The notes under the pieces are model-generated. The model did no database searches and was not told the DNA's origin. It was given only the letters and a program-made list of their open reading frames with translations. Of a stretch of 64,000 bases of DNA, positions 31,283 through 37,218 are shown piece after piece. The first letter of the stretch is position 1; each line of letters begins with the position of its first letter. Source of the DNA: a virus; the IMG/VR virus record IMGVR_UViG_3300025425_000009, positions 1 through 64,000 of that record; one strand, given 5' to 3'. The position numbers were made by a program, and so were the translations under genes.

Positions 31283-32752
31283 ATGACAAGATTTAACAAA
31301 CCACAGCAGAATACTACGGAAAACCATGAAGGGTCCACAGCATTCATGCATTCACCTGAATTGCAGCTGTATTCGTTGGTTGTGACTTGCATGGTCAGTG
31401 ATAAGTTTTACGAATCATCTGATGATCAACTGGTTCGACTAAGAGGTCTTCTACCTACAGTAGACCCTAAGTTTGCTGTACAACTTGCAATTTATGCTAG
31501 AGAAGAGATGCATCTAAGAACAATACCTCTTGTTCTAATGATAGAGCTAGCCAGGATCCACTCAGGTGACAACCTTGTTTCCCAAGGTGTTGGTAGAGTG
31601 ATTCAGAGGGTTGATGAAATAACAGAAATGCTTGCGTATTACTGTGCTGCTAACAACCGTAATGATGTTGCTCCGTTGTCTAAGCAAATTCAGAAGGGGT
31701 TACAGGTGGCGTTTAACAAGTTCAATCACTACCAGTTTGCCAAGTACAACAGGCCTGGTAAGGTGACACTTAAAGATGCACTGTTCATTGTTAGACCGAG
31801 CAGTGATACGTTCAAGCAGTCAGAAGTGTTTGCAATGATTGCATCAGGCACGCTTGGATCAGCAGACACATGGGAAACCTCTCTGTCCTCAGGGCTAGAT
31901 AAGAAAGAAGCATGGGAGGAGTTAATCATGAATGACAAGCTTGGTTACATGGCCATGATGAGAAACCTAAGAAACTTCGTACAGGCAGGCATCTCTAAGG
32001 ATGCACTAGTTAAGGTGTGCCAATTCATATCTGCTAAGGAACGGGTACTTGCGTCTAAGCAACTCCCATTTAGATTCTACTCAGCGTATAGAATGTTGAA
32101 AGAGGTGGAAGGTGACGGGGTGACGATGATCCTAGACTCTCTGAATAAGGCAGTCAAGCATTCAATAGCCAACATACCTTTTTTCAGTGAAACCGAAAGT
32201 GTCATGATTGCATGTGACGTATCTGCATCAATGATGGTGCCTCTGTCTGACAAGAGCGTAGTTGAGTATTACGATGTAGGTCTCCTTCTTGGGTCTTTAC
32301 TTCAGGCCAACTCCAACTTCGTCCAGACAGGACTGTTCGGAGATACATTCAAGGTGTACCCAATGGCATCCACCAACATACTGGAGAATGCTTGCCAGCT
32401 AAGAAGGTGTGAAGGCGATGTAGGTTACGCTACAAACGGTCACACTGTTATTGAGTATCTGACCCAGACAGGTAAGAGTGTTGACAAAGTCGTTATGTTT
32501 ACTGACTGTCAGATGACTGATTCATCATACGACGGACGTGCCCTTAGTGCAGCTTGGAACCAGTACAAAACACAACACCCTAACTCCAAATTATACATTT
32601 TCAACTTGTCAGGCTATGGCAAGGAAGTGTTCTCACAACATGCCAATGACATTTTTCAAGTGGCTGGTTGGAGTGAAAAAATATTTGATATGCTTCATTC
32701 GTTGGAATCAGGGGACTCAGTTATTTCAACAATTCAAAAAATTAGTATATAA
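31283..32752 (+). CDS. rsr: Ro60/Rsr TROVE-vWA RNA-binding protein
   Basis: NHEG, LAIYAREEMHLR, QFAKYNR, TWE, LGYMAMMRNLRN, LPFRFYSAY; vWA MIDAS DVSAS...TDCQ. Confidence 0.95.
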   Translation: MTRFNKPQQNTTENHEGSTAFMHSPELQLYSLVVTCMVSDKFYESSDDQLVRLRGLLPTVDPKFAVQLAIYAREEMHLRTIPLVLMIELARIHSGDNLVSQGVGRVIQRVDEITEMLAYYCAANNRNDVAPLSKQIQKGLQVAFNKFNHYQFAKYNRPGKVTLKDALFIVRPSSDTFKQSEVFAMIASGTLGSADTWETSLSSGLDKKEAWEELIMNDKLGYMAMMRNLRNFVQAGISKDALVKVCQFISAKERVLASKQLPFRFYSAYRMLKEVEGDGVTMILDSLNKAVKHSIANIPFFSETESVMIACDVSASMMVPLSDKSVVEYYDVGLLLGSLLQANSNFVQTGLFGDTFKVYPMASTNILENACQLRRCEGDVGYATNGHTVIEYLTQTGKSVDKVVMFTDCQMTDSSYDGRALSAAWNQYKTQHPNSKLYIFNLSGYGKEVFSQHANDIFQVAGWSEKIFDMLHSLESGDSVISTIQKISI

Positions 32753-32757
32753 TACTA

Positions 32758-32895
32758 GTACTAGGTGCTGTAGAAAACAGTTACTTCCACTTTAAGGACA
32801 AGGTCGGTGGTTCGATTCCACCTCAACACTTCGGTGTTGATAGCTCAATGGTAGAGCATGTATAACACACCTGTTTTCGCTTGTTGCCCTAGTAC
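32758..32895 (+). ncRNA. YrlA-type Y RNA with tRNA-like domain
   Basis: stems GTACTAGG/CCTAGTAC and GAAAACAG/CTGTTTTC enclose T-arm GGTGG-TTCGATT-CCACC, closed acceptor hairpin TCAACAC-TTCG-GTGTTGA and D-arm TAGCTCAATGGTAGAGC; starts 5 nt after the Ro60 stop. Confidence 0.9.
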
Positions 32896-32897
32896 AT

Positions 32898-33906: not shown

Positions 33907-34479
33907 ATGATAATCTACACCAGGAAAAAAGAAATACAGTTTGCACAGACCTCAAGTGAAATAGAAGGAGAACTCTCTGAAAGTGCATGGCAGGACCATC
34001 TTGATGCGTGGGACTTCCTTAAGGAAACTGATACCGTGTCTTTGCATGATCTGTTAGAATGCCACTACGGGCTGCAAATACGGCTGAGACCTGACATTGC
34101 CGGTAAGTTTAGAACATGCAATGTTAGGGTCGGCTCCCACATAATGCCTCATTATGCCAGTGTTGTAGCAATGACACGCGCATGGCTGCGTAAGTGGACA
34201 GGCAGCAAGTTGCCTAAGACTGAGGAAGAGTGTAGGACTGCTCATATAGAGTTTGAGAATATACACCCCTTTGAAGATGGCAACGGTAGAGTAGGCCGGT
34301 GTATACTGAATTGGCACAGGCGTAAGCTAAACCTGCCGATTCTGATTATCCATGTAGGTGAAGAGCAGCAGGCATATTACGGCTGGTTCAAAGAGGCACA
34401 AAACAGTGATGCACTTTATAAAACACTAGGCAGTGACTGTGTCAGATCCTACACAAAGAAGTTTACCAAAAAGAGATAA
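33907..34479 (+). CDS. Fic-domain protein
   Basis: canonical HPFEDGNGRVGR; N-terminal SSEIEG inhibitory-type motif. Confidence 0.92.
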   Translation: MIIYTRKKEIQFAQTSSEIEGELSESAWQDHLDAWDFLKETDTVSLHDLLECHYGLQIRLRPDIAGKFRTCNVRVGSHIMPHYASVVAMTRAWLRKWTGSKLPKTEEECRTAHIEFENIHPFEDGNGRVGRCILNWHRRKLNLPILIIHVGEEQQAYYGWFKEAQNSDALYKTLGSDCVRSYTKKFTKKR

Positions 34480-34489
34480 CTCACACCAC

Positions 34490-34672
34490 ATGACCACAAA
34501 AGATAAATCTGTTGAACCAGAAGACAAGACAAACAGGGCAGGCCGAAGAGCAAGTGCAAAACAGCGTCGTGGAGTGGCTGAGCATAACCGCAAGTACAAA
34601 TTAGCTGTACACTTGAATGACGGTAGCACAGCAAAGCGAAAGAGATTACAAGCACTATGTAAAAACACGTAA
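34490..34672 (+). CDS. small basic protein
   Basis: NRAGRR motif; K/R-rich. Confidence 0.45.
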   Translation: MTTKDKSVEPEDKTNRAGRRASAKQRRGVAEHNRKYKLAVHLNDGSTAKRKRLQALCKNT

Positions 34673-34676
34673 GAAT

Positions 34677-35693
34677 ATGGCAAAGAAAGCAACAAGCAAA
34701 GGCACAATCTCAGATGCACTTGCAATACTGGAAAAGAAGCATGGTAAAGGTGCTGTTATGAAGTTGGCAAAAGGGGAACAGATCACCAAGGTTGAGCTGC
34801 TTCCTACAGGTATTTATTCTATCGACAAGGCACTAGGTGGAGGGTTTGCAAGAGGAAGAGTGGTAGAGCTGTACGGAAATGAAGGGTCCGGTAAGACTAC
34901 CCTTGCACTGCAGACCATCGCTAAAGCCCAGGCCGATGGACTTAAGGCTGCTTTCATAGATGTGGAACACGCGTTCAGTCTGCAATATGCCAGATCTTTA
35001 GGAGTTGACCTAGAAGAGTTGTATTTTTCACAGCCTAAGTCAGCAGAGATGGCGATGGACATTGCCAAGACACTTGCCCAAACAGGCGAGTTTGCTGTGG
35101 TGGTAGTTGACTCAGTGGCAGCATTAACACCTGACACAGAGTTTGATGGAGAGATAGGTAAGGCACAGATAGGGCACCTTGCTAGATTCATGTCGGCTGC
35201 ACTAAGGCAGATTGTTGGTGAGTTCCACAAGACAGGCACATCACTTATTTTTATCAACCAGCTCAGAATGAAAATTGGTGTAATGTTCGGAAACCCTGAG
35301 ACAACACCTGGTGGAAATGCACTAAAGTATTATGCATCACAGCGACTTGCTATACGTAAGTCTACAAAGATAGATAATAAGGAAGGTGTCACCATAGGGT
35401 ACAACGCACTCATTAGAGTAGAGAAAAACAAGATAGCGCTACCTAACATTAAAGCAACTGTGCCTGTGACAAATGGTAAAGGGTTTGACAAGGTTGCTGA
35501 CATGTTCCAGGTTGCGGAATTACTTAATGTCATAACTAAGGAGAAGGCGTCCTACTTTTTCAATGGTGAGAAACTTGGAGTGTACGAGGTAAACGCAAAA
35601 CAGGCACTGTACGACAGTCTAGACATATACACAGCAATAGAAGAAGCAGTCATAGCGTTAAACAACCCTGATGAAAGCGCTAACATAGTATAG
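34677..35693 (+). CDS. recA: RecA recombinase
   Basis: GNEGSGKTT, FIDVEHA, VDSVAAL, INQLRMKIGVMFGNPETTPGGNALKYYAS. Confidence 0.97.
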   Translation: MAKKATSKGTISDALAILEKKHGKGAVMKLAKGEQITKVELLPTGIYSIDKALGGGFARGRVVELYGNEGSGKTTLALQTIAKAQADGLKAAFIDVEHAFSLQYARSLGVDLEELYFSQPKSAEMAMDIAKTLAQTGEFAVVVVDSVAALTPDTEFDGEIGKAQIGHLARFMSAALRQIVGEFHKTGTSLIFINQLRMKIGVMFGNPETTPGGNALKYYASQRLAIRKSTKIDNKEGVTIGYNALIRVEKNKIALPNIKATVPVTNGKGFDKVADMFQVAELLNVITKEKASYFFNGEKLGVYEVNAKQALYDSLDIYTAIEEAVIALNNPDESANIV

Positions 35694-36309: not shown

Positions 36310-36356
36310 GTTGTTAACATGTCACAATGTGCATCTCCAAGAGAACGTGGTATAAT
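36310..36356 (+). promoter_or_regulatory. conserved phage promoter driving the second tRNA cluster
   Basis: GTTGTTAACA 36310, TGTGCA 36328, 17 nt, TATAAT 36351. Confidence 0.75.
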
Positions 36357-36376: not shown

Positions 36377-36448
36377 TGACCTGTAGCCAAGTGGTAAGGC
36401 AAGGGATTGTTACTCCCTGTACCGCAGGTTCGAATCCTGCCGGGTCAG
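36377..36448 (+). tRNA. tRNA-Asn(GUU)
   Basis: cloverleaf; loop TTGTTAC. Confidence 0.9.
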
Positions 36449-36543
36449 CAAGGTTAAATCTCATAGATTCGCTTATTGAAAGTAAGTGTATTGTAAATAC
36501 ACCGACCTATGAGTACCTATGCAACACACTAGTGTGTCTGCTA

Positions 36544-36719
36544 AGACGGTGCTGTAGACAACAGTTACTTCTACATCTTCAGAAAAAACAATAATGCATA
36601 GCATGCTAAACTTCGGTTTACATGCATAATGAGTGTAGGTTAAGCCTGCGCCTTCTCTGGTAAAGCAGAGTCGTACTAGAGTATTCACTCTTATCACTGT
36701 TGTCGATTGTTGCCCGTTT
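36544..36719 (+). ncRNA. second Y RNA with non-tRNA effector domain
   Basis: GGTGCTGTAGACAACAGTTACTTC...CTGTTGTCGATTGTTGCCC matches the ends of Y RNA 1 with a compensatory base-pair change. Confidence 0.85.
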
Positions 36720-36723
36720 GATT

Positions 36724-36797
36724 GCTCTGTTAGTTCAATAGGAGAACGCTACCTTGTCACGGTAGTAACGTCGGAGCGTAACCGTCACAGAGCGCCA
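36724..36797 (+). tRNA. tRNA-Asp(GUC)
   Basis: cloverleaf; loop TTGTCAC; atypical T-loop AGCGTAA; CCA encoded. Confidence 0.85.
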
Positions 36798-36840
36798 AGG
36801 GAGTCAACACTCCTACAGCGCAGTTAACAAACAAACAAGC

Positions 36841-37071
36841 ATGATTAAACAATTAAAAAATGATGATGCTGCACTTATCAAAGAGATTGGGATTAAATCA
36901 TTGTCCAGAGTTGTAGGGTACAATGAGAATGGGGAGCCCGTTGAGTTAGTGTACGTAAAACATTCAGATACAGGATACGAGTGGCATGTAGGAGGGGAAT
37001 ATCAGAGTGATGCATCACTAAGGTCAGTAGAGAAATATGCACACAGGCTGAATCATTGCCTATTGGTCTAG
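36841..37071 (+). CDS. hypothetical protein
   Basis: ATG after A-rich leader; 3' end overlaps tRNA-Gln. Confidence 0.55.
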   Translation: MIKQLKNDDAALIKEIGIKSLSRVVGYNENGEPVELVYVKHSDTGYEWHVGGEYQSDASLRSVEKYAHRLNHCLLV

Positions 37072-37143: not shown

Positions 37144-37218
37144 GGGCGATTGGTGATAATAGTAGCACATCCGCCTTGCACGCGGAAGGCGACGGAGCGT
37201 AACCGTCATTGTCCACCA
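37144..37218 (+). tRNA. tRNA-Ala(UGC)
   Basis: loop CTTGCAC; G3-U70; T-loop AGCGTAA; CCA encoded. Confidence 0.88.

What the first reader, a model, noticed from the sequence alone, without database searches (positions are those of the whole stretch)
36544..36719. Second Y RNA has a non-tRNA effector domain I do not recognise
Seen: between the Ro-stem strands lie an A-rich linker, a GCAUG-UAAAC-UUCG-GUUUA-CAUGC hairpin, and a GAGUG/CACUC-closed junction with small hairpins (UAGG/CCUG, CUCUG/CAGAG). There is no T- or D-loop consensus. It lies 3.8 kb from Ro60 inside a separately promoted tRNA operon, 4 nt before tRNA-Asp, so tRNA processing could release it. Inference: a new Y RNA class recruiting a different partner.
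Basis: partly seen in the sequence, partly recalled or inferred. Interest (0 to 1): 0.8.

Follow-up and report, generated by a model that had tools for sequence, protein, structure and literature searches.

The report
Second phage Y RNA, variable insert
This is a real second partner RNA (Y RNA) for the phage's Ro60 protein, sitting inside a tRNA operon, but its unusual middle part is not shared even by the closest related phage, so it is an ordinary variable-insert Y RNA and not a new class.

Summary
Window 36541-36723 is a genuine Y RNA. A covariance model built only from 56 Y RNAs of other loci hits it full-length (47.4 bits, E 5e-11). The only other hit in the whole 75.7-kb phage genome is Y RNA 1, next to Ro60 (101 bits). 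The interior has no T- or D-arm and no Rfam match. It is predicted to fold as an A-rich linker plus four side-by-side hairpins.

The interpretation, a new Y RNA class recruiting a different partner, is not supported. The one syntenic relative I could fetch (L164, Ro60 50% identical) has its own Y RNA 2 at the same position: after the same promoter motif and 3 nt before tRNA-Asp. Its Ro-binding stem is kept through four double compensatory changes. Its interior is unalignable (85 vs 125 nt). A model of the window's interior finds nothing in 160 Ro60 loci (2 Mb).

Arrays of Y RNAs with one shared handle and different inserts are the rule in these loci. They are known from the literature (YrlB, Yrn2, phiLo Yrl1/2), and this scan has reported them on other DNA. 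Verdict: new member of a known kind, modest interest.

The parts
31283..32752 (+). Ro60 (TROVE + vWA) gene, the presumed protein partner
   Evidence: Pfam TROVE 5.5e-29 and vWA_Ro60 1.1e-6. Nearest relatives are about 50-52% identical, many named from Bacteroidota.
32757..32897 (+). Y RNA 1, tRNA-like (T-arm, UUCG hairpin, D-arm); 3 nt before tRNA-Lys
   Evidence: R1 101.3 bits, E 6e-26. Sub-threshold Rfam YrlA, 36.6 bits against a gathering score of 69. 81% identical to L164 Y RNA 1, with compensatory changes.
36310..36356 (+). Promoter-like block of the tRNA-Asn / Y RNA 2 / tRNA-Asp operon: GTTGTTAACA, a TGTGCA box, then TGGTATAAT (extended -10)
   Evidence: The motif recurs 7 times on the + strand and stands at the orthologous place in L164. 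Promoter function is inferred, not shown.
36377..36449 (+). tRNA-Asn(GTT), first gene of the operon
   Evidence: ARAGORN; Rfam 67.2 bits.
36450..36543 (+). 94-nt spacer with hairpins between tRNA-Asn and Y RNA 2; absent in L164
   Evidence: Fold z -1.8, not significant. Weak DUF3800-I resemblance, 26 bits against a gathering score of 44. Status unknown.
36545..36571 (+). Y RNA 2 handle, 5' strand: basal stem GACGG, GCUGUAG motif, upper stem, then UUACUUC
   Evidence: Matches the family consensus (A4). 93% identical to Y RNA 1. Pair probabilities 0.83-1.0.
36572..36600 (+). A-rich, mostly single-stranded linker
   Evidence: Only a weak 4-bp hairpin in the full-length MFE and unpaired when the interior is folded alone. 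An A-rich linker after UUACUUC is a family-wide feature in the R1 consensus.
36601..36625 (+). Hairpin H1: 10 bp with one bulged C, UUCG tetraloop
   Evidence: z -4.5 on its own.
36633..36651 (+). Hairpin H2: GUGUAGGU/GCCUGCGC, 3-nt loop
   Evidence: Pair probabilities 0.87-1.0. Prediction only.
36655..36670 (+). Hairpin H3: CUCUG/CAGAG, 6-nt loop
   Evidence: Pair probabilities 0.94-0.97. Prediction only.
36678..36691 (+).
   Evidence: Pair probabilities 0.83-0.96, against about 0 for GAGUG/CACUC. Prediction only.
36696..36719 (+). Y RNA 2 handle, 3' strand: upper stem, UCGAUUGUUGCC, basal stem
   Evidence: The 15-nt TCGATTGTTGCCCGT is identical in L164 Y RNA 2. Matches the family consensus.
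36724..36794 (+). tRNA-Asp(GTC) with an unusual T-loop (AGCGUAA); its 5' end would set the Y RNA 2 3' end after RNase P cleavage
   Evidence: Rfam tRNA 50.7 bits; missed by ARAGORN; cloverleaf fold. RNase P cleavage is inferred.
36841..37071 (+). 76-aa ORF conserved after tRNA-Asp in both phages (synteny marker)
   Evidence: 37% identical to the L164 ORF in the same position.

Best explanation
Window 36541-36723 encodes a genuine second Y RNA of this salt-lake phage. Its paired 5' and 3' ends form the conserved handle, which carries the GNYGUAG and UUACUUC motifs and which Ro60 is expected to bind.

The handle encloses a lineage-specific insert: an A-rich linker and about four hairpins. This insert evolves fast and is not tRNA-like.

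The gene is transcribed from a phage promoter of the same motif class as the Ro60 operon, within a tRNA-Asn / Y RNA 2 / tRNA-Asp precursor. RNase P cutting at the tRNA-Asp 5' end would leave Y RNA 2 with a 4-nt 3' tail.

Its likely role is the one known for non-tRNA-like second Y RNAs. It occupies or gates Ro60, or it offers an alternative tether. It does not define a conserved new effector class.

Shown: handle homology, paralogy with Y RNA 1, orthology by synteny, and lack of conservation of the insert. Inferred: Ro60 binding, the promoter, the processing steps and the function.
For: 1. Model R1, built from 56 Y RNAs of other loci, hits Y RNA 2 full-length at 47.4 bits, E 5e-11. In the whole 75.7-kb genome it otherwise hits only Y RNA 1.
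2. The family handle shows double compensatory changes at 22 of 25 predicted pairs.
3. L164 has the same gene order: Ro60, Y RNAs and tRNAs, Fic, RecA, promoter motif, Y RNA 2, tRNA-Asp, small ORF, tRNA-Gln. Its Y RNA 2 scores 47.6 bits. Between the two orthologs the stem keeps every pair, with 4 double changes.
4. Both window Y RNAs carry U at the third position of GNYGUAG. This variant occurs in 24 of 288 catalogued Y RNAs and tends to be shared by the paralogs of one locus (L117 4, L096 2, L130 2, L222 2). That fits co-evolution with one Ro60.
5. The insert is structured beyond shuffles: z -2.2 here, H1 alone -4.5, L164 insert -3.9.
6. 25 of 288 catalogued Y RNAs lie 0-40 nt upstream of a tRNA, most of them 1-11 nt.
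7. The literature reports at least two Y RNAs per species, only one of them tRNA-like (PMC4201824). Phage phiLo Ro60 binds two Yrl RNAs (PMC12135203).
Against: - There is no expression or binding data. No RNA run is listed for this phage.
- Only one ortholog could be fetched, so insert conservation is judged on two sequences.
- The 5' end is undefined. A 94-nt spacer separates tRNA-Asn from the handle.
- The adjacent tRNA-Asp has an aberrant T-loop, which could weaken RNase P recognition.
- The gene lies 3.8 kb from Ro60, further than the 2 kb typical of described cases.
Confidence: 0.8

Rival explanations
1. One reading: the insert is a dedicated effector domain that recruits a partner different from that of Y RNA 1. 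This would be a new functional Y RNA class.
For: The insert is structured (z -2.2; UUCG hairpin z -4.5). It is unlike any Rfam family. It differs from the single long hairpin described for YrlB/Yrn2 (PMC4201824). A Y RNA 2 has been kept at this position in two phages whose Ro60 is only 50% identical, so some function is retained. Other loci do carry conserved, specific inserts such as the 23S-like one, so payload-type inserts exist in this family.
Against: The ortholog's insert is 85 nt against 125 nt, with a different number of hairpins and no alignable helices. Model R2 of the insert finds no relative in 2 Mb of Ro60 loci. One sequence with no conserved relatives does not make a class.
Confidence: 0.12
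2. Y RNA 2 is a decaying duplicate of Y RNA 1: a former tRNA-like module eroded into arbitrary hairpins, with little or no function.
For: The R1 alignment lays H2, H3 and the H4 region over the T-arm, middle hairpin and D-arm positions of the tRNA-like consensus, with H1 as an insertion. The insert is free to vary between orthologs.
Against: Both handle strands match the family consensus and keep pairing through compensatory changes across a deep split. The gene keeps its promoter and its tRNA-adjacent place in both phages. The rare U variant is shared with Y RNA 1. The hairpins remain stable, with tetraloops.
Confidence: 0.06
3. The element is a Ro60-independent structured leader or spacer that only helps processing or stability of the tRNA precursor.
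For: It lies between two tRNAs and 4 nt from tRNA-Asp. Other structured spacers exist nearby, such as 36450-36543.
Against: The handle carries the sequence motifs specific to Y RNAs found next to Ro60 genes in 110 of the 161 sequences scanned, the 160 Ro60 loci plus this window. In the genome it occurs only here and at Y RNA 1.
Confidence: 0.02

Closest known systems
YrlB (Salmonella, M. smegmatis) and Yrn2 (D. radiodurans): second, non-YrlA Y RNAs (Chen et al. 2014, PMC4201824)
   Same: A second Ro60-associated RNA encoded near rsr on the same strand. It shares the Ro-binding stem and motif with the tRNA-like Y RNA and carries a different interior. The authors proposed that such RNAs widen the range of Ro60 complexes.
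   Different: [quoted passage not shown] This one is predicted to have a linker plus four hairpins. It lies 3.8 kb from Ro60, inside a tRNA operon.
YrlA (Rfam RF02553)
   Same: The same kind of terminal handle. Y RNA 1 of this phage is a sub-threshold YrlA match (36.6 bits).
   Different: Y RNA 2 lacks the T-arm and D-arm module that defines YrlA. It gives no Rfam match even at E up to 10.
Thermus phage phiLo Yrl1 and Yrl2 with phage Ro60 (PMC12135203)
   Same: A phage-encoded Ro60 with two Y-like RNAs of different interiors. Both bind the phage Ro60 in vitro and form complexes with host PNPase.
   Different: The phiLo RNAs lie upstream of Ro60 and carry a CGAA motif. Here the motif is GCUGUAG and the RNAs are joined to tRNA genes.
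Metazoan Y RNAs (Y1, Y3, Y4, Y5)
   Same: A conserved Ro-binding stem formed by the two ends. Variable internal loop domains differ between paralogs and evolve faster than the stem.
   Different: No sequence homology was tested here. Metazoan Y RNAs are Pol III transcripts with La-binding tails, not tRNA-operon products.

Membership tests
Bacterial/phage Y RNA (Ro60 handle family) | 5' and 3' ends pair into a stem carrying the conserved Ro-binding motif (GNCGAA-like; GNYGUAG in this clade) and its 3'-strand counterpart | tested here: met
   R1, built from 56 foreign Y RNAs, scores 47.4 bits, E 5e-11, model positions 1-136. Covariation of the handle is shown.
Bacterial/phage Y RNA (Ro60 handle family) | Encoded near a Ro60 ortholog on the same strand | tested here: met
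   Same strand, 3.8 kb downstream. This is further than the 2 kb of the described cases (PMC4201824). The same spacing is kept in L164.
Bacterial/phage Y RNA (Ro60 handle family) | Physically bound and stabilised by Ro60 | not testable with these tools
   Needs RIP, EMSA or a Ro60 deletion.
YrlA (RF02553) | tRNA-like module with T-arm and D-arm between the stem strands | tested here: not met
   No Rfam hit at E up to 10 in 36450-36800 apart from the neighbouring tRNA. No GGUUCGAAUCC-like T-arm within 2 mismatches.
YrlB/Yrn2-type second Y RNA | [quoted passage not shown] | tested here: not met
   The predicted interior is a linker plus four separate hairpins. Prediction only.
Proposed new Y RNA class with its own effector domain | Interior conserved in sequence or structure across homologs | tested here: not met
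   The syntenic ortholog's interior is unalignable, 85 vs 125 nt. Model R2 of the interior finds no hit in 160 Ro60 loci. Only one ortholog was available.

The most novel reading that the evidence does not exclude
The Y RNA handle could be a modular display platform whose inserts are swappable payloads, each aimed at a different protein or RNA target. On this reading the hairpin cluster of Y RNA 2 would dock a specific phage or host factor other than the partner of the tRNA-like Y RNA 1. Its rapid turnover between phages would then reflect adaptation to different hosts and not neutrality. The 23S-rRNA-like insert seen in other loci would be another payload of the same system.
Probability: 0.12. 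Interest if true: 0.65.

Novelty: new member of a known kind. Interest (0 to 1): 0.3.

Why it matters
It adds a clean example of a phage that wires both of its Y RNAs directly to tRNA genes, so that tRNA processing enzymes would release them. It also shows that selection holds the Ro60-binding handle while the insert is free to change. This cautions against naming new Y RNA classes from a single sequence. The broader catalogue made here is probably the more useful lead. It has 288 candidate Y RNAs, found in 110 of the 161 sequences scanned (160 Ro60 loci plus this window). Most loci carry several, and some carry a 23S-rRNA-like insert.

Tried and rejected
**Searches for close relatives that found nothing**
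- Phage database, blastn distant and near.
- IMG/VR by Ro60 peptide patterns.
- IMG/VR by the exact 5'-strand pattern: one chance hit inside a coding region (L003).
- IMG/VR by a Y RNA 2-specific handle pattern.
- IMG/VR by the small ORF downstream of tRNA-Asp.
- Metagenome scan with the single Ro60 protein.
- RecA relatives in IMG/VR are all at or below 50% identity and were not used further.

The Logan and ENA contigs encoding the nearest Ro60 proteins (P0002-P0016, 50-52% identity) could therefore not be fetched.

**Sequencing runs.** Six salt-lake DNA runs hold the stretch, and no RNA holder is listed. Contigs laid from four runs are identical over Y RNA 2, so there is no natural variation to use.

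**Insert model R2.** The only non-self hit is L187:5408-5493 (E 0.037). It lies in coding-like DNA without handle strands and was rejected as chance.

**rRNA or tRNA mimicry by the window insert.** No match in E. coli genomes and no Rfam rRNA hit.

**First duplex-based scan for handles.** Too noisy. It was replaced by a motif-anchored scan and by model R1.

It was evaluated against the MFE fold and is disfavoured by the energy model, with pair probability about 0. My explicit energy for that structure (-40.5 vs -52.9 kcal/mol) contains an indexing slip in the H1 hairpin and should not be quoted.

Full report
**Setting.** The window is the first 64 kb of a 75,657-bp IMG/VR virus record that CheckV rates complete. 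The same phage, letter for letter over this region, is present in several salt-lake metagenomes from 2017-2018. ORF 31283-32752 is a Ro60 ortholog, with Pfam TROVE 5.5e-29 and the Ro60 vWA domain. Its nearest relatives among 5.8 billion proteins are only 50-52% identical, and many named ones are from Bacteroidota. The region holds 20 tRNAs by ARAGORN plus two found only by Rfam.

**The observation.** Directly after Ro60 lies Y RNA 1 (about 32757-32897). It is a sub-threshold Rfam YrlA match (36.6 bits, E about 1e-6 locally) with a T-arm, a UUCG hairpin and a D-arm. The reported element at 36544-36719 shares both stem strands with Y RNA 1. The 5' strands are 27 nt at 93% identity. The 3' strand is also shared, and one A-U to C-G compensatory change separates the two. 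The region gives no Rfam hit besides the neighbouring tRNA, even at E up to 10.

**An independent test of 'Y RNA'.**
- I collected 160 Ro60 loci: 80 viral and 80 metagenomic.
- A motif-anchored scan found 288 candidate Y RNAs with the same handle, in 110 of the 161 sequences scanned (the 160 loci plus this window). Of those 110, 85 have two or more and 57 have three or more.
- I aligned 56 tRNA-like members from other loci (A4).
- RNAalifold recovers the handle and the T-arm. At 22 of 25 predicted pairs some sequence keeps the pair after changing both sides.
- The covariance model built from this alignment (R1) contains no window sequence.
- With filters off, R1 hits Y RNA 1 at 101.3 bits (E 6e-26) and the reported element at 47.4 bits (E 5e-11), across the full model length.
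- The remaining R1 hits in the window, and in the whole genome, are partial matches that fall on tRNA genes. None is a third Y RNA.
- So the element is a Y RNA by its handle, and the phage has exactly two.

**The interior.**
- Folding gives an A-rich linker followed by four hairpins: H1 36601-36625 (UUCG loop), H2 36633-36651, H3 36655-36670 and H4 36678-36691.
- The whole RNA has z -3.7, the interior alone -2.2, and H1 alone -4.5.
- The proposed GAGUG/CACUC closing helix has essentially zero probability in the ensemble. H2 and H4 use those bases instead.
- These are predictions. No covariation is available to decide between the folds.

**The ortholog test.** L164 is a 23-kb metagenome contig whose Ro60 is 50% identical. 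It is a syntenic relative with the order Ro60, Y RNAs and tRNAs, a Fic-domain protein, RecA, ORFs, Y RNA 2, tRNA-Asp 3 nt later, a small conserved ORF, then tRNA-Gln. R1 finds three Y RNAs there. One is at this position, scoring 47.6 bits.
- Y RNA 1 is well conserved between the two phages: 81% identity, with compensatory changes in the T-stem and in the middle hairpin, whose loop changes from UUCG to GCAA.
- Y RNA 2 keeps every handle pair, four of them through double changes. Fifteen nucleotides of its 3' strand are identical.
- Its interior is 85 nt against 125 nt. It has two GCAA-capped hairpins in place of four hairpins, and no helix can be aligned.
- A covariance model of the window's interior (R2) finds nothing in the 160 loci, about 2 Mb, except itself. 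One rejected chance hit lies in coding-like DNA.
- Both interiors are nevertheless more stable than shuffles.

**Signs that Y RNA 2 is functional and not a dead copy.**
- The handle has been kept under pairing constraint across a deep split.
- The gene sits behind a promoter-like motif: GTTGTTAACA, a TGTRCA box, 17 nt, then (TG)nTATAAT. This motif recurs seven times on the + strand, including before the Ro60 operon, and it stands at the same place in L164.
- Both window Y RNAs carry U at the third position of the GNYGUAG motif. The variant occurs in 24 of 288 catalogued RNAs and tends to be shared by all paralogs of one locus. This is what co-evolution with one Ro60 would give, although gene conversion would give the same pattern.

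**Processing.** Both Y RNAs of the window, and at least two of the three in L164, end 3-4 nt before a tRNA. Across the catalogue, 25 of 288 lie within 40 nt upstream of a tRNA, most of them 1-11 nt. RNase P cleavage at the tRNA 5' end would therefore create the Y RNA 3' end. This is inference. In the window the 5' side is less clear. A tRNA-Asn and a 94-nt spacer lie between the promoter and the handle, whereas in L164 the handle follows the promoter directly. The window's tRNA-Asp has an odd T-loop (AGCGUAA) and is missed by ARAGORN.

**Comparison with what is known.**
- Chen et al. [quoted passage not shown] The others (YrlB, Yrn2) share the Ro-binding motif but have other interiors. The authors suggested that these allow Ro60 to form complexes with more components.
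- Thermus phage phiLo Ro60 binds two different Yrl RNAs (PMC12135203).
- Earlier reports of this scan describe several phage Ro60 loci with arrays of RNAs on one handle with different inserts.
- The present element is a further member of that kind. It is not YrlA, because it lacks the tRNA module. It does not match the 'long hairpin with small pyrimidine-rich loop' description of YrlB/Yrn2. It cannot be called a class of its own, because its insert has no conserved relative.

**Mechanism, with odds.**
- About 0.8: a Ro60-bound second Y RNA whose handle is the functional constant and whose insert is lineage-specific. It would act as a gate on Ro60 or as an alternative tether. The A-rich single-stranded linker is the kind of element an S1/KH-type nuclease domain could hold. 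That last point is my inference from the RYPER model cited in PMC4201824.
- About 0.12: the insert recruits a specific, different partner.
- About 0.06: a decaying copy.
- About 0.02: a Ro60-independent spacer.

Noticed in passing
L229:10811-11037, L232:9545-9787, L087:8983-9230: Three Y RNAs with the normal Ro60 handle (R1 43.7-53.8 bits) share a conserved insert of about 100 nt. It begins with a copy of a 23S rRNA segment (GUAACUAUAACGGUCCUAAGGUAGCG...). BLAST against E. coli matches 23S rRNA at 87-94% identity over 34-45 nt. This could be an rRNA-mimicking Y RNA. It is of interest because Rsr takes part in 23S rRNA maturation (PMC4201824). A four-term full-text search listed only general Y RNA papers by title and abstract; I did not open them for this.
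   Followed up: partly
window 2986, 4851, 16886, 30918, 36310, 39515, 42640 (+ strand); L164 4244, 11559, 15072: A recurrent promoter-like motif: GTTGTTAACA, about 8 nt, TGTRCA, about 17 nt, then a TATAAT-like box. The exact 10-mer occurs 8 times in the window (7 on + and 1 on -, the - copy without the downstream boxes). It is conserved at orthologous spots in L164. Likely one temporal class of phage promoters, shared by the Ro60 operon and the Y RNA 2 operon.
   Followed up: partly
window 36724-36794 and 37144-37215: Two tRNAs are seen only by Rfam (50.7 and 42.5 bits) and missed by ARAGORN. The first is the only tRNA-Asp found in the window. It has a non-canonical T-loop (AGCGUAA) and a mismatch in the T-stem, whereas the L164 ortholog is canonical.
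   Followed up: partly
window 36450-36543: A 94-nt spacer with several hairpins lies between tRNA-Asn and Y RNA 2 and is absent from L164. It shows a weak, sub-threshold resemblance to DUF3800-I RNA (26 bits against a gathering score of 44). Its fold z is only -1.8. Unexplained.
   Followed up: partly
catalogue of 288 Y RNA candidates from loci L084-L243 and the window: The rare U at the third position of the GNYGUAG handle motif is locus-specific: all four Y RNAs of L117, two each in L096, L130 and L222, and both in the window. This suggests that handles co-evolve with their own Ro60, or that paralogs undergo gene conversion.
   Followed up: partly
L132:10564-10801 and L168:8976-9208: Orthologous long Y RNA inserts (about 180 nt) are built from several hairpins with GAUUCGUC or GAGUUCGAACUC loops, resembling repeated T-arm-like hairpins. 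In L168 the RNA ends 3 nt before tRNA-Glu.
   Followed up: no
window 33907-34479 and 34617-35693; L164 9037-9570 and 9530-10630: A Fic/DOC-domain protein and a RecA homolog lie between Ro60 and Y RNA 2 in both phages. Any link of the Fic protein to the Ro60 system was not examined.
   Followed up: no
L164:8501-8570: The related phage has a third, short Y RNA (R1 58.2 bits) that ends just before tRNA-His. It has no counterpart in the window phage, which has exactly two.
   Followed up: no
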